A DNA stretch of 64,000 nucleotides. Source: an uncultured Chloroflexia bacterium (GTDB lineage Bacteria; Chloroflexota; Anaerolineae; Anaerolineales; UBA11858). The notes below the pieces were generated by a model. The model searched no databases and was not told where the DNA came from. It saw nothing but the letters and a program-made list of their open reading frames with translations. The stretch lies in assembly GCA_963712165.1 (NCBI GenBank), contig CAVQGY010000003.1:434684-498683 (forward strand). The letters run 5' to 3'. Position 1 is the stretch's first letter; each line of letters begins with the position of its first letter. Position numbers and translations under genes: made by a program. This document shows, one piece after another, positions 3,953 to 63,817 of the stretch.

Positions 3953-4576
3953 ATGACTAGAAAAGTCCTTTTATTATCCTCATTTATCACTCTGCTTTTG
4001 GCCCTGGTATTATTCCTGTCTAAAACTGGTTCTGCTTTGGCGTCTGGTTCTTTTCAACAGCCAACCGTGTCCATTCCAACGGTTACAGGTACAGCTACAG
4101 GCCCAATTGCGATTGTTTACTCGGATCCAGAGGATCAGATCAATGTGCGCTCTGGACCGGATGTGTTTTATCCGAAAGTGGGTGTGCTGATCAACCGCCA
4201 GGTAGTACCGGCACTAGCGAAGACTGAAGGCGACTTGTGGGTAAAAATTGTCTACCCGGGGGTCCCAGAAGGAGTCGCCTGGGTCTACGCCCCTTATGTC
4301 CGGGTGACCGGTGAGCTGCCCATTGTGCCGAAACCTCCCACACCAACACCAGCAATAACAGCCACTATTGACCCGACATTGGCATCTCAGTTCATATCTG
4401 AGATCCCGCCAACTCGGAAACCAACCTTCACACCTGCAGCTCCCTTGATCGTGCCCACCTTCTTGCCGGCAACGGCAATCAGTGGAGCAGCTGGTTTACC
4501 GAGCGGCTTCATTATCCTTGGATTATCCTCAGTAGGTCTGTTTGGGTTGCTGGTATCTTTCCTGCGGCGTTCCTAG
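3953..4576 (+). CDS. Membrane-anchored bacterial SH3-domain protein
   Basis: N-terminal signal/anchor (LLLSSFITLLLALVLFL), an SH3b-like core (INVRSGPDVFYPKVGVL...LWVKIVYPG...AWVYAPYV), a Pro/Thr-rich linker and a C-terminal TM helix. Confidence 0.6.
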   Translation: MTRKVLLLSSFITLLLALVLFLSKTGSALASGSFQQPTVSIPTVTGTATGPIAIVYSDPEDQINVRSGPDVFYPKVGVLINRQVVPALAKTEGDLWVKIVYPGVPEGVAWVYAPYVRVTGELPIVPKPPTPTPAITATIDPTLASQFISEIPPTRKPTFTPAAPLIVPTFLPATAISGAAGLPSGFIILGLSSVGLFGLLVSFLRRS

Positions 4577-4600
4577 GGAAAGTCACTATTAAAAGAAAAA

Positions 4601-4630
4601 AGACCAGGCTCATTACCTGGTCTTTTTTTT
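4601..4630. terminator. Bidirectional intrinsic terminator between convergent genes
   Basis: AGACCAGG-ctcatta-CCTGGTCT hairpin, preceded by an A-run and followed by T8. Confidence 0.65.
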
Positions 4631-4642
4631 CCGGTGAGTTCA

Positions 4643-4996
4643 TTATCCGCACCCGGTTGAAGGATCACACCCGGCGCAACCTGATAATTCGTTATTCTTG
4701 GTAAGTGGTTCTATTTGGAATCCCTTTCGTCCGTTTTCTTCAACGAACTTGATATTTGCTTTTCCTAAATAGGCAAGGGTTTGGGCATCAACGATGACCT
4801 GTACGCCATGGCTGGAATAAACTTGGTCACTATCACTGACCTTGTCATCCAGGGACAAGCCGTACTGTGGGCCCCCTCAACCAACCCCGGCGATAAATAT
4901 TCGCAGGGATTGTGAGACCATATTTTGTTCTTTGAGCAGGGTTTTAACTGCGATTGCTGCTTCAGGAGTCAGGTTGACTGCTTGGGTGTTTTCCAT
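4643..4996 (-). CDS. HesB/IscA-like A-type Fe-S carrier with one in-frame TGA (candidate selenocysteine at codon 40); 117 aa
   Basis: The ORF track gives only the 71-aa tail (4643..4858). The same frame is open back to ATG at 4996 apart from TGA at 4877..4879. The joined product MENTQAVNLTPEAAIAVKTLLKEQNMVSQSLRIFIAGVG-[TGA]-GGPQYGLSLDD...SGCAGCDPSTGCG aligns along its length with IscA/HesB, and the TGA falls at the first ligand Cys (GCSG of IscA). Confidence 0.65.
4841..4859 (-). promoter_or_regulatory. Candidate bacterial SECIS hairpin downstream of the in-frame UGA
   Basis: Perfect 6-bp stem CUUGUC/GACAAG with 7-nt loop CCUGGAU. The stem starts 17 nt after the UGA, so the apical loop is about 23 nt from it. 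Confidence 0.45.
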
Positions 4997-5238
4997 GGGT
5001 TTCCTGTGATCTGAGTGAACGTATAAATTTCCTGCATTTTAGCAGGATTTGAGGAAGTGTCAACGCCAAACGGAGGGATTGATATATTTCTTAGACAAAA
5101 AAGAGATGAAACTCACCTATTTGAATAGCATCCGGGAGTTAATAAGCTATTAGAAATCCGAGACCGACTGTTTAGTGATAGCGTGGGTGTTATAATCCTG
5201 CCAGAAAATGTACAAACCAAGATACCGGAGATAATCAT

Positions 5239-6099
5239 TTGGAAAAACGTATTCTATCAGTTCTGGCCCATCCTGATGACGAGTCATTTGGTATGGGGGG
5301 AACACTGGCAAAGTATGCTAGTGAAGGGGCGAAGGTACACTTGATATGTGCAACCCGGGGTGAAGCCGGGGAAGTCGATCCAGAATGCTTGGATGGTTAT
5401 GATTCGATCGCAGACCTTCGAGTAGCGGAATTGAACTGTGCTGTTAAGGTATTGGGTATTGATAAAGTACACTTGCTGCCTTATAGAGATTCTGGAATGA
5501 CTGGCAGCCAAAACAACCAAAATCCCCAGGCGCTGATCAATGCTCCTTTAGAGAAGGTTGCCGGAGAAATAGCAGCCTACATCAGGATGTTCAAACCCCA
5601 AGTAGTATTAACATTCGATCCTGCGGGAGGATACCGCCATCCGGACCATATCTTCATCCACCGGGCAACGACAATGGCGTTCAGCCTTGCTGGGGAGCCG
5701 GATTTAATTAGCGATTTGCCCCCCTATCAACCTGCCAGGCTATTCTACAATACTATCTCGCGCCATTTTATCCGCTTTAATGTCCGTTTATTGAAATTTC
5801 TTGGCAGGGATCCCAGTAAATATGGCAAGAACGAGGATATTGACTTGACTTTACTTGCTGCCGATGATTTTCCAGCTCATGTCCGGATCGATTATGGGCC
5901 GTATGCTCAAAAGAAAATGATTGCCTCTGAATGCCATGCCAGCCAAGGAGGCCGGGGATTAACACGACGGCCGATGCGCCTGCTCGCCTGGCTGTTAGGA
6001 GGTAGATCCAGGGATCAATTTATGCAAGCTTTCCCACCTCCAGCAGAGAATAAATCGAGGGTAAAAAGAGATTTGTTCGCTGGAGTAGCTGACACATGA
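5239..6099 (+). CDS. PIG-L/LmbE-family N-acetylglucosaminyl deacetylase (MshB/BshB-like)
   Basis: LSVLAHPDDESFGMGGTLAKY (the AHPDDE zinc-site motif) and HPDHIFIHRAT. TTG start. TGtTATAAT extended -10-like element about 45 nt upstream. Confidence 0.8.
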   Translation: MEKRILSVLAHPDDESFGMGGTLAKYASEGAKVHLICATRGEAGEVDPECLDGYDSIADLRVAELNCAVKVLGIDKVHLLPYRDSGMTGSQNNQNPQALINAPLEKVAGEIAAYIRMFKPQVVLTFDPAGGYRHPDHIFIHRATTMAFSLAGEPDLISDLPPYQPARLFYNTISRHFIRFNVRLLKFLGRDPSKYGKNEDIDLTLLAADDFPAHVRIDYGPYAQKKMIASECHASQGGRGLTRRPMRLLAWLLGGRSRDQFMQAFPPPAENKSRVKRDLFAGVADT

Positions 6100-52390: not shown

Positions 52391-53752
52391 TCAGGATTGC
52401 CCGAAAGCCTGTAAGATCCTCGCGATATGTTTTGCGCCTTTAAGATAGAGATCGATCCGGATGTTTTCATCCGGGGCATGAGCGTTTCCACCAGGGTGGC
52501 CGATTCCCGTAGTGACCACTGGAAGTTTCAAAGTATGGACGAAAGCATAACTGGGACCAGAACCGCCAACCATCGGGACCAGCTGCATTTTTTCTCCAAA
52601 TGCGCCTTCCGATACATTGACTACGAGTTCTACAAAAGGATCATCTGGGTTTGTACGGGCGGCAGGTCCCCCTCCCAGATATTCAATATGGATGTCTGGA
52701 TAGCCCTCATGGTCCAGGTGTTCACGCAGCTGTTTAAGGACCTGGGATGGAGTTTGGCCAAGGGCAAGGCGAAAATCGACTTTAGCGGATGCCCTGGCGG
52801 GCAGGACCGTTTTTGACCCCGGGCCCTGGTAGCCAGATGTGAGTCCACAAATTGTGCAGGTAGGTTCATATACTGCAGCAACCCTTAAAGCTGTTTCATC
52901 CGGGAAGTCCTTTAAGAAATCCTTTATTCCATACCTGTCCTTGTATTCCTGGCTCACAGGGGGAAGGGCTGCAAGCAGATCGATTTCCCTAGCTGAGGGG
53001 TGGATGATTGGGTCGTAAAAACCAGGTAGGCGGATCTGCTCATCCTGGTCCTTTAATGTGTTCAAAGCCCAGACCAATCGCCAAGCGGCGTTGGGAAAAA
53101 TCGAGCCACCTAGCCCGGAGTGAACATCCATATCTGCGGTATCCACAGATAGTTCAACATAACAAATACCGCGCAGGCCAAGGTACTGCATGGGTGTATC
53201 GCGGTGATCAACTCCTCCAAACTCCCAGATGCAGGCATCTGCCTGGAGCAGCTCCTGGTGAGACTCCACGAAATCTGGCAGGTGAACGCTTCCGATCTCT
53301 TCTTCACCCTCGATGATAAATTTGATATTACATGGCAGCTCACCAAGCTCATAGAGCAGAGAGTCTAGTGCAAATAGCCTGCTAACGATGTGGCCTTTAT
53401 CGTCACTGATCCCCCGTCCAAACAGTTTGCCATCACGTTCTTCTGGTTGAAAAGGAGGTGAAGTCCAAAGCTCTAGAGGTTCTGCCGGCTGGACATCATA
53501 ATGATTGTAGATCAGGATGGTTTTATCGTTGGTCCCAGCTCTCTCCCCGAACACGACCGGATGGCCGCCTGTTTCCAGGATCCGTGCTGTAAACCCCCGT
53601 TTTTTAAGCATGGCCTCTACCATCAGGGCGGTCTCTCTCATTCCCAGGTTTTGAGCGGCGACACTGGGCTGGGCACAAAGCTCTTTTAATTCTTCAAGGC
53701 TGTTGGACAGGTTCTGTTCCAAGTAACGATCAATGGCGGAAAAGTCAAACAT
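52391..53752 (-). CDS. M20-family metallopeptidase/dipeptidase
   Basis: YNHYDVQPAEPLELWTSPPF, GRGISDDKG and FIIEGEEEIGS metal-ligand contexts. Confidence 0.85.
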   Translation of the reverse strand: MFDFSAIDRYLEQNLSNSLEELKELCAQPSVAAQNLGMRETALMVEAMLKKRGFTARILETGGHPVVFGERAGTNDKTILIYNHYDVQPAEPLELWTSPPFQPEERDGKLFGRGISDDKGHIVSRLFALDSLLYELGELPCNIKFIIEGEEEIGSVHLPDFVESHQELLQADACIWEFGGVDHRDTPMQYLGLRGICYVELSVDTADMDVHSGLGGSIFPNAAWRLVWALNTLKDQDEQIRLPGFYDPIIHPSAREIDLLAALPPVSQEYKDRYGIKDFLKDFPDETALRVAAVYEPTCTICGLTSGYQGPGSKTVLPARASAKVDFRLALGQTPSQVLKQLREHLDHEGYPDIHIEYLGGGPAARTNPDDPFVELVVNVSEGAFGEKMQLVPMVGGSGPSYAFVHTLKLPVVTTGIGHPGGNAHAPDENIRIDLYLKGAKHIARILQAFGQS

Positions 53753-55811: not shown

Positions 55812-56609
55812 TTACCTGTCAGGCCTGTTTTGTTCCTGGTTCATATAATTCTGATCGGCTAAATAAGCCAAAAGGCGTGACGAGATTTCCTGCTGACTGG
55901 AGCGGGTATATTTGACACGTGTATAGAGTTGGGCCAGGTTCTCAATGGAGTTGGCTTCTGCCTGGTTTTTGAGCCAGGAGGATTTCATATATCGCTCCCA
56001 ACCCTTGATCTCTCTCTCTGAATAGATCGACTTTATTTCCTGGTCGGTATAGTCATGATAGGTTTCCTTATGAACGAGTCCCCGGGTAGGCAGTCGATCC
56101 CGAAGATCAGGGTTTTCATCCGGATAACCCAGTGAATAGCCAACCACAGGAACGACGTTCTCTGGAAGCTCTAGTATCTCACCAATAAGGTCAGCGTTGG
56201 CGAAAGTACTTCCCAGGTAGCAGAGGCCAAGGCCCCGCGACTCTGCGGCCAGCGCGACGGTTTGCGAGACAAGGATCGCGTCCATTGCAGCAACCATAAA
56301 GCTAAAAAAGTTATCGAAACCATCAGGTGCGTTGCTGAGGTCTAGCCACAACCGCATACGGTGAAAATCAGCACAGAAGGTCATCAGAACCGGCGCTTCG
56401 ACTACCATGGACTGTTCTAGGTGAGGTTTGAGGAGCTTCGCGCGAAGGTCCGCATCCTGGGTGGTGATGATCGAATAGGCTTGCATATTCCCGGAAGATG
56501 GGCTTCGAATTCCGGCTTCAAGGATTTCTTCCAGCAGCGCTTCCGGGATCGGATCTGGTTTATATTTCCGGATCGAGCGATGTTGATGGATTTGTTCAAT
56601 GACTGGCAT
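55812..56609 (-). CDS. Nitroreductase-family (FMN) oxidoreductase with C-terminal extension
   Basis: MPVIEQIHQHRSIRKYKPDPIP N-terminus typical of the family. GGAGGAAAGTAC precedes ATG 56609. Confidence 0.8.
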   Translation of the reverse strand: MPVIEQIHQHRSIRKYKPDPIPEALLEEILEAGIRSPSSGNMQAYSIITTQDADLRAKLLKPHLEQSMVVEAPVLMTFCADFHRMRLWLDLSNAPDGFDNFFSFMVAAMDAILVSQTVALAAESRGLGLCYLGSTFANADLIGEILELPENVVPVVGYSLGYPDENPDLRDRLPTRGLVHKETYHDYTDQEIKSIYSEREIKGWERYMKSSWLKNQAEANSIENLAQLYTRVKYTRSSQQEISSRLLAYLADQNYMNQEQNRPDR

Positions 56610-56815
56610 GTACTTTCCTCCAGGATGATCTTCCTTAATAAAAATCAGTATACGATATTTAGACTGGTTGTGTTCTCCAATTCTGAAGCGAAAAAAAATA
56701 GGGTTCAAGGTGTTTGGCCTTAAGCAAACCCCATTCCATTTGACATTGGTTAGAGGATAGGACGTTGATTAGAATATTGAAACCCTGGAGAGTATAGTGC
56801 CTGAATTGCCCGGGA

Positions 56816-62595: not shown

Positions 62596-62636
62596 TAGCT
62601 CGTTGTATATGTTCGGCAATTTAACAATTGAAAATA

Positions 62637-62756
62637 GCATTGGTGCCAGTACTCCTTCAGGGGAGGGCTTGATGGCGAAGTCTGTGAGAATCAGACGCTG
62701 ACCCGCAACTGTGATTCGAGTGTAAGAACCCGATAAGCCAGGTCGACCGCCAATGC
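62637..62756 (+). ncRNA. Cobalamin (B12) riboswitch aptamer
   Basis: P1 GCAUUGG (62637..62643) pairs with CCAAUGC (62750..62756). Conserved core GCUGACCCGCAACUGUGA and B12-box-like AAGCCAGGUCGACCGCC. Lies upstream of a BtuF-like gene. Confidence 0.8.
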
Positions 62757-62827
62757 TGACCGTTCATTGATCTCTCGAGGTAAGGAGGTGTGAACCTGGA
62801 TTATTTAACCAGAATCCCATTTGCTTT

Positions 62828-62884: not shown

Positions 62885-63817
62885 ATGAAAGATAAAATTG
62901 GATTGATACTATGGATTCTGCTGATCCTGTCTGCAGTTCTAACTGCCTGTGCTCCAATATCACCTGAAGCTCCAGAGAAAGAAGCCATTCTACTGGTAGA
63001 TGGGTTAGGATTTGAGGTAGTTCTGGAAAAACCAGCCCAGCGGATCATTTCCATCTCACCGAACCTGACGGAAATTCTCTTCGGGATTGGTGCTGGCGAC
63101 CGCTTGATTGGCCGAGATTCGAATTCCATGTATCCTGAAGCAGCCCAGCAGGCAGTTGACCTGGGCGGCATGTGGGATGGAATTCCCGCGGAAGCTATCC
63201 TGGCCATGGAACCAGACCTGATCCTGGCAGGAGAAATTTACTCTGCAGAAGCTATAACAGAACTTCGGAACCTGGGGCTGAACGTATATTGGCAGGCCAA
63301 TCCGGATGATTTTGAAGGGCTTTATCAGAATATGCGCGACATCGCTGCTCTTGTTGGTACTGAAGATAAGGCAGAAGTGTTGATAGGATCATTGATGGAC
63401 CGAGTTGCAGCCTTGGATGAGAAGCTGGATGCTGTTGAAGTAACACCACTGGTATTCTATGAGCTGGATGCTTCCGAACCGGCTAATCCCTGGACAGCTG
63501 GCGCCGGGACGTTCATCTCATATGTCATCAATAGAGCCAAGGGTATTAACCTGGGTGACAGCCTGGAAGGCGAATGGGTCCAGATCAGCACAGAAGAGCT
63601 GGTGGCACAGAATCCAGATGTGATCCTTCTGTCAGATGCCCTTTATGGCGTCACCGCAGAAAGCCTTGCAGGGCGAGCTGGATGGAGTGAGATCAAAGCA
63701 GTTAACGAAGGTGAAATCTATCCCTTTGATCCATTCATACTTAGTGTTCCGGGACCACGCCTTGTCGATGGATTTGAGATCCTGGCTGCGATCCTTCACC
63801 CGGAGATAGTTGACTGA
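62885..63817 (+). CDS. ABC transporter periplasmic binding lipoprotein, BtuF/FhuD type (likely cobalamin)
   Basis: Lipobox VLTAC and ISISPNLTEILFGIGAGDRLIGRDS...EPDLILAGE (PF01497 pattern). Riboswitch directly upstream. Confidence 0.85.
   Translation: MKDKIGLILWILLILSAVLTACAPISPEAPEKEAILLVDGLGFEVVLEKPAQRIISISPNLTEILFGIGAGDRLIGRDSNSMYPEAAQQAVDLGGMWDGIPAEAILAMEPDLILAGEIYSAEAITELRNLGLNVYWQANPDDFEGLYQNMRDIAALVGTEDKAEVLIGSLMDRVAALDEKLDAVEVTPLVFYELDASEPANPWTAGAGTFISYVINRAKGINLGDSLEGEWVQISTEELVAQNPDVILLSDALYGVTAESLAGRAGWSEIKAVNEGEIYPFDPFILSVPGPRLVDGFEILAAILHPEIVD

What the first reader, a model, noticed from the sequence alone, without database searches (positions are those of the whole stretch)
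4643..4996. ORF-caller-missed HesB/IscA-like gene with in-frame UGA at the ligand-Cys position: candidate selenoprotein with SECIS-like hairpin
The ORF track reports only a 71-aa fragment (4643..4858, TTG start). On the minus strand the same frame stays open back to an ATG at 4996, apart from a single TGA at 4877..4879. The joined 117-aa product resembles A-type Fe-S carriers from end to end. It has the N-terminal helix, then LRIFIAGVG-[TGA]-GGPQYG, then a C-terminal Cys pair SGCAGC. By my manual alignment to E. coli IscA (LRLGVRTSGCSGMAY), the TGA falls on the first of the three cluster-ligand cysteines. A perfect 6-bp hairpin CUUGUC-CCUGGAU-GACAAG (4841..4859) starts 17 nt after the UGA. That puts a G-containing apical loop about 23 nt downstream, the geometry expected for a bacterial SECIS. 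HesB-like proteins are a known but rare prokaryotic selenoprotein family. A missed Sec codon therefore seems more likely than a pseudogene, and it would imply that this genome carries Sec machinery.
Basis: partly seen in the sequence, partly recalled or inferred. Interest (0 to 1): 0.7.

Follow-up and report, generated by a model that had tools for sequence, protein, structure and literature searches.

The report
Missed selenoprotein: Sec-containing IscA/HesB gene

Summary
On the minus strand, 4996..4643 is one 117-codon frame broken only by TGA at 4879..4877. It is an A-type Fe-S carrier (PF01521 and TIGR00049 above cut-off), and the TGA aligns with the first ligand Cys of solved IscA-type structures. 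All 53 orthologous loci found (19 species-level genomes, 34 metagenome contigs; 42-83% aa identity) carry TGA at this codon with intact frames. dN/dS upstream of the TGA is 0.13, as downstream. Cys appears only in relatives at 46% identity or less, including a partly syntenic one. TGA ends 19 of 51 long ORFs in the window, so the genome is not recoded. The motif U-G-G-P fits the published UxGP signature of HesB-like selenoproteins. A promoter and a terminator frame the full ORF.

It is perfect only in the window and one close relative, shows no covariation, is broken in divergent members, lacks the loop G and is weak (-4.5 kcal/mol). A longer stem-loop (4864..4802) does covary and sits in a zone of suppressed synonymous change. 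Its apical loop is 39-42 nt from the UGA, just outside the consensus range.

Sec machinery was not found in the window, and the rest of the genome could not be searched. Verdict: a new member of a known selenoprotein kind.

The parts
5036..5063 (-). Sigma-70-type promoter: TTGACA, 16-nt spacer, TAAAAT, with a TG extended -10
   Evidence: The consensus scan matches 11 of 12 positions and is the only promoter-like site in 4400..5400. It lies about 40 nt upstream of the ATG at 4996, so it serves the full-length ORF and not the 71-aa fragment. This is a consensus match only; function is inferred.
5001..5005 (-). Shine-Dalgarno-like AGGAA, 4 nt upstream of the start codon
   Evidence: Read directly from the sequence. 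Inferred, not tested.
4643..4996 (-). Full-length coding sequence of 117 codons plus TAA stop: a Sec-containing A-type Fe-S carrier (IscA/HesB-like)
   Evidence: for the frame. PF01521 and TIGR00049 score above their cut-offs. The protein is homologous to solved IscA/SufA structures at E = 4e-15. It is conserved end to end in 53 loci. dN/dS is 0.13 for codons 2-39 and 0.09 for codons 41-117.
4877..4879 (-). In-frame TGA (codon 40), inferred to encode selenocysteine at the position of the first cluster-ligand Cys, in the motif G-U-G-G-P
   Evidence: It aligns with the Cys of GGCSG in 2apn, 1nwb and 1r94. TGA is present in 53 of 53 orthologs. The positional ortholog L020 and more distant relatives have Cys. 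The motif fits the UxGP signature (PMC13188914, Table 1).
4802..4864 (-). Extended imperfect stem-loop starting 12 nt after the UGA; the best candidate for the SECIS element
   Evidence: RNAalifold predicted it on 19 sequences. On 44 distinct sequences, together with the 3' hairpin, it is 95.6% paired and 6 pairs show changes on both sides; 0 of 500 shuffles reach those values. The window's copy folds at -20.3 kcal/mol. It lies inside the zone of suppressed synonymous change. That it binds SelB is inferred.
4825..4841 (-). Apical hairpin of the stem-loop, GGUCA-GUGAUAG-UGACC in the window (consensus GGUC-A-GC-GAYA-GC-GACC)
   Evidence: It is present in 40 of 44 sequences, always with a G in the first two loop positions. 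Compensatory changes occur in sequences that were not used to predict the structure: GC to CG and GC to AU (two sequences each) and CG to UA (one). The loop starts 39-42 nt after the UGA, against a consensus range of 16-37 nt.
4841..4859 (-).
   Evidence: It is physically present. Its energy is -4.5 kcal/mol and it has no G in the first two loop positions. Pair 34:50 forms in 2 of 44 sequences, no pair shows a compensatory change, and it does not exceed shuffles. Its bases form part of the 5' arm of the extended stem-loop.
4783..4799 (-). Second conserved hairpin, consensus G-GUCAUC-GUN-GAUGAC-C (codons 66-72); the window's copy has one mismatch
   Evidence: It is 99% paired across 44 sequences, with one compensatory AU to GC change, and is present in all 44. 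Its synonymous sites are almost invariant. Its role is unknown.
4649..4678 (-). C-terminal cysteine cluster C107-A-G-C110-D-P-S-T-G-C116, the presumed partner ligands
   Evidence: It aligns with the C-terminal CGC...C motif of Aquifex IscA, 1nwb. C107 and C116 are invariant and C110 is nearly invariant in the clade.
4596..4628 (-). Intrinsic terminator: 14-bp stem followed by a T run, 15 nt after the stop codon
   Evidence: The only weak Rfam matches in this stretch are to terminator hairpins of small RNAs.

Best explanation
The gene at 4996..4643 (minus strand) encodes a 117-residue selenoprotein of the A-type iron-sulfur carrier superfamily (IscA/SufA/ErpA/HesB). Codon 40 (UGA) is read as selenocysteine and not as a stop. 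The most likely mechanism is the standard bacterial one. SelB, carrying GTP and Sec-tRNA(Sec), is recruited by an RNA structure in the coding sequence just 3' of the UGA. The best candidate for that structure is the extended stem-loop at 4864..4802 with its apical hairpin at 4841..4825. Sec then takes the place of the first of the three cluster-ligand cysteines (motif G-U-G-G-P), and the C-terminal C107/C110/C116 cluster supplies the other ligands. The gene is a single-gene transcription unit with its own promoter and terminator.

Shown here: the frame; family membership; the position of the TGA in the ligand-Cys column; conservation of the TGA; purifying selection on both halves; ordinary use of TGA as a stop elsewhere in the window; and an RNA structure specific to the Sec-encoding clade.

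Inferred: that the inserted residue is Sec; that the stem-loop binds SelB; and that the protein handles iron or Fe-S clusters.
For: (1) Codon 40 aligns with the ligand Cys of GGCSG in solved A-type carriers. PF01521 and TIGR00049 score above their cut-offs.
(2) All 19 orthologs from species-level genomes and all 34 from metagenome contigs have TGA at this codon with an intact frame on both sides. Fifteen 'full-length' database proteins show W at this position, and for the one checked the DNA reads TGA.
(3) dN/dS is 0.127 for codons 2-39 and 0.113 for codons 73-117, with dS above 1. The part upstream of the TGA is therefore translated and under constraint.
(4) There is a Sec/Cys pair. L020 (46% identity, GGGCSGYQCG) has the same convergent SH3-protein neighbour at the same offset. 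All relatives at 40% identity or less have Cys.
(5) TGA ends 19 of the 51 ORFs of 150 aa or more in the window.
(6) U-G-G-P fits the UxGP motif of HesB-like selenoproteins (PMC13188914). That family has been verified by 75Se labelling in Methanococcus maripaludis (PMC11097638).
(7) Synonymous divergence over codons 38-72 is 0.24, against 0.46-0.47 elsewhere (p = 1.4e-6). The stem-loop covaries. The 78 nt after the UGA have a mean fold z-score of -2.5 in 44 Sec sequences, against -0.22 in 62 Cys homologs.
(8) Anaerolineales single-cell genomes encode a Sec-specific elongation factor and Sec-containing formate dehydrogenases (PMC4959059).
(9) A promoter at 5063..5036 and a terminator at 4628..4596 frame the whole ORF.
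Against: No tRNA-Sec, SelA, SelB or SelD was found in the window or in about 1.4 Mb of ortholog flanks. That is only a small part of each genome, and the rest of the source genome could not be searched.

The candidate SECIS has its apical loop 39-42 nt from the UGA, outside the 16-37 nt range that holds for most bacterial SECIS elements.

The window's own 78-nt segment has a fold z-score of only -1.2, and two divergent members score -0.4 and -0.9.

The protein scores below the curated cut-offs of both selenium-associated HesB families: NF038090, 56 against 85; TIGR01911, 50.6 against 66.35.

The covariation statistics come from related sequences, and the structure was first derived from a subset of them.

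There is no protein-level evidence.
Confidence: 0.85

Rival explanations
1. The UGA is read through with a standard amino acid and not with Sec, for example Trp or Cys from a near-cognate or suppressor tRNA. The conserved downstream RNA structure would then act as a read-through stimulator.
For: Sec machinery has not been shown in this genome. The conserved hairpin lies outside the consensus SECIS spacing. Rfam recognises nothing in the stretch.
Against: The UGA sits exactly on a metal-ligand Cys and within the UxGP motif that marks HesB-like selenoproteins (PMC13188914). Trp at a cluster-ligand position would make no functional sense, and a Cys codon would be the simpler solution, as in L020. 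The Sec trait is documented in Anaerolineales (PMC4959059). Every row of a published table of prokaryotic selenoprotein families that was read here gives a Sec-containing motif, most often paired with a Cys.
Confidence: 0.07
2. Translation stops at the UGA. The functional products are a 39-residue peptide and/or a 71-residue C-terminal protein started internally at codon 47 (ATG in most orthologs, TTG here), which is how databases annotate the gene.
For: Gene callers report the 71-aa ORF in about 45 database entries, some of them named IscA. Codon 47 is ATG in most orthologs.
Against: The two pieces stay in the same frame, with no insertion or deletion, in 53 of 53 loci. Codons 41-46 (GGPQYG) would be untranslated under this model, yet they fall in the most constrained part of the gene, with dN/dS 0.057 over codons 41-72. 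The domain needs both halves: the PF01521 match covers residues 7-94. The promoter and the Shine-Dalgarno sequence precede codon 1, not codon 47. Position 47 is simply a hydrophobic position in the family.
Confidence: 0.04
3. The gene is a pseudogene, or the TGA is a sequencing or assembly error for TGT/TGC.
For: Read on its own, one window with one internal stop allows this. Two relatives do look damaged: L045 has an extra TAA, and L119 has a 120-nt deletion.
Against: The same TGA occurs in 53 independent assemblies from many samples, with dS above 1 and dN/dS near 0.1 on both sides.
Confidence: 0.01
4. The lineage uses a genetic code in which UGA is a sense codon throughout the genome (table 4 or 25), as the W-containing database entries would suggest.
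For: Fifteen database proteins were translated with W at this position.
Against: TGA ends 19 of the 51 long ORFs in the window, including conserved housekeeping genes such as the ATP synthase beta subunit and RpoD. No other convincing coding frame in the window is interrupted by UGA. The W calls come from contigs of about 0.5-1.3 kb.
Confidence: 0.01

Closest known systems
HesB-like selenoprotein family (TIGR01911 HesB_rel_seleno; motif UxGP; Zhang and Gladyshev lineage of papers: PMC1088965, PMC1794560, PMC13188914)
   Same: It is a small HesB/IscA-domain protein with a single Sec at the position of the conserved first Cys. The motif U-G-G-P fits UxGP. Cys-containing homologs exist. The gene is missed or truncated by standard annotation.
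   Different: It scores 50.6 bits against the curated cut-off of 66.35, and none of the 13 clade members scanned reaches the cut-off. The TIGR01911 model (92 positions) ends at residue 96 of this protein, before the C-terminal Cys cluster that this protein keeps. The hosts are Anaerolineales, whereas the members named in the passages of PMC1794560 read here are mostly Deltaproteobacteria and Clostridia.
NF038090 IscA_HesB_Se (NCBIfam subfamily of IscA/HesB proteins; the name indicates a selenium association)
   Same: The match runs end to end (residues 7-108 on model positions 2-100 of 101), and the domain is the same.
   Different: It scores 56 bits against a cut-off of 85, so it is not a member by the curated criterion.
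Canonical A-type Fe-S carriers IscA/SufA/ErpA (TIGR00049; PDB 2apn, 1nwb, 1r94, 2d2a)
   Same: This is the best-scoring family and the score is above its cut-off (71 against 58.8 bits). The proteins have the same length and domain. The three-ligand layout is conserved: the first ligand in the GGxSG-type loop, and a C-terminal Cys cluster that resembles the CGCGSSFSCG of Aquifex IscA.
   Different: The first ligand is encoded by UGA instead of a Cys codon. The local motif is U-G-G-P-Q-Y instead of C-S-G-[FM]-x-Y. The C-terminal spacing is C-x-x-C instead of C-G-C.
Bacterial SECIS consensus model (bSECISearch; E. coli fdhF type)
   Same: It is a stem-loop within the coding sequence immediately 3' of the UGA. 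[quoted passage not shown]
   Different: The loop is 39-42 nt from the UGA, where the consensus range is 16-37 nt. A second conserved hairpin follows about 84 nt downstream. No conserved hairpin inside the canonical distance window has the loop G.

Membership tests
A-type Fe-S carrier / Fe-S_biosyn domain (PF01521, TIGR00049) | Score above the curated cut-off of the family model | tested here: met
   PF01521 scores 42.8 against 26.3; TIGR00049 scores 71 against 58.8, with TGA read as C. All 13 clade members match both families.
A-type Fe-S carrier / Fe-S_biosyn domain (PF01521, TIGR00049) | Three conserved ligand positions: one in the GGCSG-type loop and two in the C-terminal Cys motif | tested here: met
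   Codon 40 aligns with the loop Cys, and C107/C110(/C116) align with the C-terminal CGC...C of 1nwb and 2apn. These positions are invariant or nearly so in the clade. The first position is UGA and not a Cys codon.
A-type Fe-S carrier / Fe-S_biosyn domain (PF01521, TIGR00049) | Binds iron or an Fe-S cluster and transfers it to apo-proteins | not testable with these tools
   This needs biochemistry.
HesB-like selenoprotein (TIGR01911) | Score above the curated cut-off of TIGR01911 | tested here: not met
   It scores 50.6 against 66.35 bits. The best E-value among the 13 clade members is 1e-14.
HesB-like selenoprotein (TIGR01911) | Sec (in-frame UGA) in a UxGP motif at the conserved Cys of the HesB domain | tested here: met
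   The motif is U40-G-G-P43, or U-A-G-P in L041 and L046. The motif definition is from PMC13188914, Table 1.
IscA_HesB_Se (NF038090) | Score above the curated cut-off | tested here: not met
   It scores 56 against 85 bits. The best E-value among the clade members is 2.2e-16.
Bacterial selenoprotein gene (general criteria used in the field) | The in-frame TGA pairs with Cys in homologs (a Sec/Cys pair) | tested here: met
   L020 and L073-L088 have Cys in that column. L020 shares the downstream neighbour.
Bacterial selenoprotein gene (general criteria used in the field) | TGA-containing homologs occur in other organisms, with coding conservation on both sides | tested here: met
   53 of 53 orthologous loci have the TGA. 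dN/dS is 0.13 upstream and 0.09 downstream.
Bacterial selenoprotein gene (general criteria used in the field) | A SECIS element that satisfies the bSECIS consensus: loop of 3-9 nt, stem of 4-16 bp, G in the first two loop positions, 16-37 nt from the UGA, MFE of -7.5 kcal/mol or lower | tested here: inconclusive
The conserved, covarying stem-loop meets the loop, stem, G and energy rules, but its spacing is 39-42 nt. The literature notes that some genuine elements fall outside the model.
Bacterial selenoprotein gene (general criteria used in the field) | The same genome encodes tRNA-Sec, SelA, SelB and SelD | not testable with these tools
   None was found in the 64-kb window or in about 1.4 Mb of flanks. 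Support exists only at the level of the order (PMC4959059).
Bacterial selenoprotein gene (general criteria used in the field) | Selenium is incorporated into the protein | not testable with these tools
   This needs 75Se labelling or mass spectrometry.

The most novel reading that the evidence does not exclude
The Anaerolineales clade is an independent Cys-to-Sec conversion within the canonical three-ligand A-type carriers, and not a member of the two curated selenium-associated HesB families. It would then be a carrier in which selenium directly ligates iron or an Fe-S cluster. Its recoding element would belong to a distinct class of bacterial SECIS: a long stem-loop with the apical loop about 40 nt from the UGA, followed by a second conserved hairpin about 84 nt downstream.
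Probability: 0.3. Interest if true: 0.5.

Novelty: new member of a known kind. Interest (0 to 1): 0.38.

Why it matters
Practically, about 60 public database entries for this gene are wrong. They are either truncated to 71 residues or translated with Trp at the Sec position. The curated NCBIfam selenoprotein models do not capture the clade. A model built from these sequences would correct the annotation across a widespread group of sediment and soil Anaerolineales.

Biologically, it adds a well-populated clade in which Sec replaces a metal-ligand Cys of an Fe-S carrier whose other ligands are kept. That makes it a good system for asking what selenium does in the still-uncharacterised HesB-like selenoproteins. 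A natural Cys ortholog with the same downstream neighbour (L020) is available for comparison.

The conserved RNA structure, whose loop lies just outside the consensus spacing, is a useful test case for bacterial SECIS models.

Tried and rejected
I rejected it on conservation, covariation, the loop-G rule and energy.

(2) Single-sequence folding of 71 nt and 121 nt around the UGA.

(3) Rfam, at gathering thresholds on the whole window and at E up to 10 on 4600..5100. No SECIS family was found, only look-alikes of the terminator.

(4) tRNA-Sec with ARAGORN on the window, on 20 loci and then on all 119 sequences held. None was found.

(5) tblastn with E. coli SelD and SelA sequences recalled from memory, against all sequences held. 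There were no hits. The probes were unverified, so I followed up with Pfam and NCBIfam scans of 29 ORFs in the window. No Sec-related family appeared.

(6) A scan of the window for other frames interrupted by UGA. The hesB gene was the only convincing case.

(7) A column-wise negative control on Cys homologs. My pattern selected homologs that are one residue shorter, so the columns were out of register. I discarded those counts and replaced them with an alignment-free z-score comparison plus a gapless count on L020.

(8) A look-up of the window's own 71-aa fragment in the contig index. It is not on record.

(9) A protein-database search for SelA, SelB or SelD of the same MAGs. I considered it and did not run it. 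With only an E. coli query, Anaerolineales hits would be unlikely to rank high enough to be listed, so the cost was not justified.

(10) Structure prediction. I did not run it, because sequence homology to solved A-type carriers (E = 4e-15) already settles the fold.
Full report
OBSERVATION. On the minus strand, the frame that starts at ATG 4996..4994 runs to TAA 4645..4643. It has one internal stop, TGA at 4879..4877, which is codon 40. The mechanical ORF list splits it into a 39-aa piece (4877..4996) and a 71-aa piece (4643..4858, TTG start) in the same frame.

WHAT THE PROTEIN IS. With codon 40 read as Cys, the 117-residue product scores 42.8 bits on Pfam PF01521 (Fe-S_biosyn; cut-off 26.3) and 71 bits on TIGR00049 (cut-off 58.8). 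It matches solved A-type carriers: H. influenzae HI1723 (2apn, E = 4e-15), Aquifex IscA (1nwb), E. coli IscA (1r94) and SufA (2d2a). In each alignment printed (2apn, 1nwb, 1r94), codon 40 falls on the Cys of the GGCSG loop, which is the first cluster ligand. The C-terminal GCAGCDPSTGCG aligns with the CGC...C motif.

IS THE TGA REAL AND MAINTAINED? A scan of one genome per species found 19 orthologous loci (L001-L019, 42-79% identity). Nearly all are labelled Anaerolineales or Chloroflexia MAGs. Every one has TGA at the same codon and an open frame on both sides. A metagenome scan added 34 more (L039-L072, 55-82% identity), again all with TGA. The protein database holds about 45 entries of 69-73 residues, which are the truncated call. 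It also holds 15 'full-length' entries with W at position 40. For the one I checked (P0009, from an NCBI assembly), the DNA reads TGA.

Nei-Gojobori dN/dS is 0.127 for codons 2-39, 0.057 for codons 41-72 and 0.113 for codons 73-117. dS is above 1 outside the middle region. The segment upstream of the TGA is therefore translated in this frame and is under the same purifying selection as the rest of the gene. Cys appears only in more distant relatives. L020 (46% identity, GGGCSGYQCG) has the same convergent SH3-domain neighbour at the same offset, so it is probably a positional ortholog. Homologs at 40% identity or less from other phyla all have Cys. This is the classic Sec/Cys pair signature used to identify selenoproteins (PMC13188914).

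ALTERNATIVES EXCLUDED. A pseudogene or a sequencing error is excluded by 53 independent assemblies. A genome-wide reassignment of UGA is excluded because TGA ends 19 of the 51 ORFs of 150 aa or more in the window, among them the ATP synthase beta subunit and RpoD. No other convincing coding frame in the window is interrupted by UGA. A split gene, with termination at the UGA and internal initiation at codon 47, is unlikely for several reasons. The two parts never shift frame relative to each other. Codons 41-46 lie in the most constrained part of the gene although that model leaves them untranslated. The domain spans both parts. And the promoter (TTGACA, 16 nt, TG-n-TAAAAT; 5063..5036; 11 of 12 matches) and the AGGAA Shine-Dalgarno sequence precede codon 1, while a strong terminator (4628..4596) follows the final stop.

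THE RNA ELEMENT. The published bacterial SECIS model requires a 3-9 nt apical loop on a 4-16 bp stem, a G in the first two loop positions, 16-37 nt between the UGA and the loop, and an MFE of -7.5 kcal/mol or lower (PMC13188914, Fig. 2A). [quoted passage not shown] It is absent from the MFE folds of the surrounding 71 nt and 121 nt. Across 44 distinct orthologous sequences, its second pair forms in 2 of 44 (most orthologs have AUG where the window has UUG). No pair shows a compensatory change, it does not exceed shuffled controls, and it is broken in the three divergent Sec-containing members.

An exhaustive scan of all hairpins found no conserved hairpin within the 16-37 nt window that has the loop G: 0 of 36-40 sequences.

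RNAalifold on the first 19 sequences instead predicted an extended imperfect stem-loop that begins 12 nt after the UGA (window 4864..4802). I scored it on all 44 sequences together with a second hairpin (4799..4783). The result was 95.6% of cells paired and 6 pairs with changes on both sides, against an expected 2.3 +/- 1.0, with 0 of 500 shuffles reaching the observed value. Slid controls paired only 24-46%.

The most telling changes are in the apical hairpin (4841..4825; consensus GGUC-A-GC-GAYA-GC-GACC). They come from sequences that were not used to predict the structure. In L069 and L019, Val53 GUC becomes Ile AUC/AUU together with a synonymous change of Asp57 from GAC to GAU (G-C to A-U). 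In L069 and L071, the closing G-C becomes C-G. This hairpin occurs in 40 of 44 sequences, always with a G in the first two loop positions, but its loop starts 39-42 nt from the UGA.

Two independent signals agree with an RNA constraint. First, pairwise synonymous divergence over codons 38-72 is 0.24, against 0.46-0.47 in the rest of the gene (Mann-Whitney p = 1.4e-6). Four-fold sites such as V38, G39 and V67 are invariant there. Second, the 78 nt after the UGA fold better than dinucleotide shuffles in the Sec clade (mean z = -2.5; 80% below -2). The same region in 62 Cys homologs does not (mean z = -0.22; none below -2), and L020 scores +0.3.

Several caveats apply. The Sec sequences are related to one another. 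The structure was derived from a subset of them. The window's own z-score is only -1.2. And the spacing is 2-5 nt outside the range that fits 'most' bacterial SECIS elements, although the reviews state that some real elements fall outside the model. My conclusion is that a conserved RNA structure specific to the Sec clade exists and is the best SECIS candidate.

SEC MACHINERY. None is present in the window. There is no tRNA-Sec, and Pfam or NCBIfam scans of 29 ORFs found no SelA, SelB or SelD. None is present in the roughly 1.4 Mb of ortholog flanks either. This is only a small sample of each genome. At the level of the order, Anaerolineales single-cell genomes encode Sec-specific elongation factors and Sec-containing formate dehydrogenases, and Anaerolinea thermophila encodes SelB (PMC4959059). 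Chloroflexi were already listed among selenoprotein-containing phyla in 2006 (PMC1794560).

COMPARISON WITH WHAT IS KNOWN. HesB-like proteins are an established prokaryotic selenoprotein family. There were 11 members among the 285 bacterial selenoproteins counted in 2006, and those named in the passages read were mostly from Deltaproteobacteria and Clostridia. The family is defined by TIGR01911 and the motif UxGP. It has been verified by 75Se labelling in Methanococcus maripaludis, and its function is still unknown.

The window protein has U-G-G-P, so it shares the motif and the Sec position. It nevertheless scores below the curated cut-offs of TIGR01911 (50.6 against 66.35) and of NF038090 IscA_HesB_Se (56 against 85). 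The same holds for all 13 clade members I scanned. Their best matches are the generic TIGR00049 and ErpA models. The protein also keeps the C-terminal Cys cluster, which lies beyond the end of the TIGR01911 model. It works like a HesB-like selenoprotein and belongs to the same superfamily. By the curated criteria, however, it is not a member of either selenium-associated subfamily. Whether the Cys-to-Sec change was independent cannot be decided without a phylogeny that includes those families.

CONTEXT. The locus is syntenic across the clade: transketolase, RpiB, transaldolase, a HEAT-like protein and an SH3-domain membrane protein on one side; PIG-L deacetylase, an NBR1-type Ig-like protein, a Vut_1 transporter and an aromatic amino acid lyase on the other. 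The hesB gene lies on the opposite strand from both of its immediate neighbours and stands alone. The context therefore gives no functional clue.

VERDICT. This is a genuine selenoprotein gene that annotation missed, with confidence about 0.85. It is a new, well-populated Anaerolineales clade of a known kind. The recoding element is probably a longer stem-loop with slightly unusual spacing. Interest is moderate: the finding is useful for annotation and as a model for Sec as a metal ligand, but it would not surprise a specialist.

Noticed in passing
L119:2634-2909 (JGI contig Ga0452204_290155): A close relative of the window's gene, in the same syntenic setting, carries an in-frame 120-nt deletion of codons 25-64. 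That removes the UGA and the whole extended stem-loop and leaves a 91-aa ORF (P0019). It could be a natural loss variant or an assembly artefact.
   Followed up: partly
window 4783..4799 (-); alignment A3 columns 93-109: A second hairpin, G-GUCAUC-GUN-GAUGAC-C (codons 66-72), about 84 nt after the UGA, is present in 44 of 44 orthologs. Its synonymous sites are almost invariant, and one sequence (L005) has a compensatory AU to GC change. It lies too far from the UGA to be a canonical SECIS, and its role is unexplained. The window's copy has one mismatch.
   Followed up: partly
window 4880..4885 (-), codons 38-39: The two codons just 5' of the UGA (GUU GGU) are almost invariant at their four-fold sites, whereas Gly37 one codon upstream varies freely. 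This suggests a constraint on the codon context of the UGA, or pairing of GUUGA with the downstream CAGU (the small helix predicted).
   Followed up: no
L045:357-707: One metagenomic ortholog has an extra in-frame TAA at codon 48 (TCA to TAA) in addition to the TGA. This is probably a sequencing error or a decaying copy.
   Followed up: no
L001 (CAXMRF010000045.1): This contig is labelled 'uncultured Nitrosomonadaceae bacterium', yet it carries the hesB-Sec gene in full synteny with the Anaerolineales loci, with neighbours 46-83% identical. It is probably a mis-binned contig.
   Followed up: partly
L002:8901-9854, and the equivalent position in L003, L008, L013, L015, L017, L047 and L062: A subset of orthologous loci carries about 1 kb of extra DNA between hesB and the PIG-L deacetylase gene. 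In L002 this is a 317-aa ORF, which I did not annotate.
   Followed up: no
window 62624..62768 (+): A cobalamin riboswitch (RF00174; 50.7 bits against a gathering score of 31.5) lies just upstream of a 310-aa ORF at 62885..63817. From its sequence the ORF looks like a periplasmic substrate-binding protein.
   Followed up: no
window 55812..56708 (-) and 52391..53752 (-): An ORF resembling a nitroreductase or BluB, and an M20 peptidase, show weak sub-threshold similarity to families linked with cobalamin or selenium metabolism (BluB at 52 bits; the YgeY 'selenium metabolism-linked hydrolase' at 55 bits against a cut-off of 321). These scores are far below the cut-offs and are not evidence of a link to selenium.
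   Followed up: no
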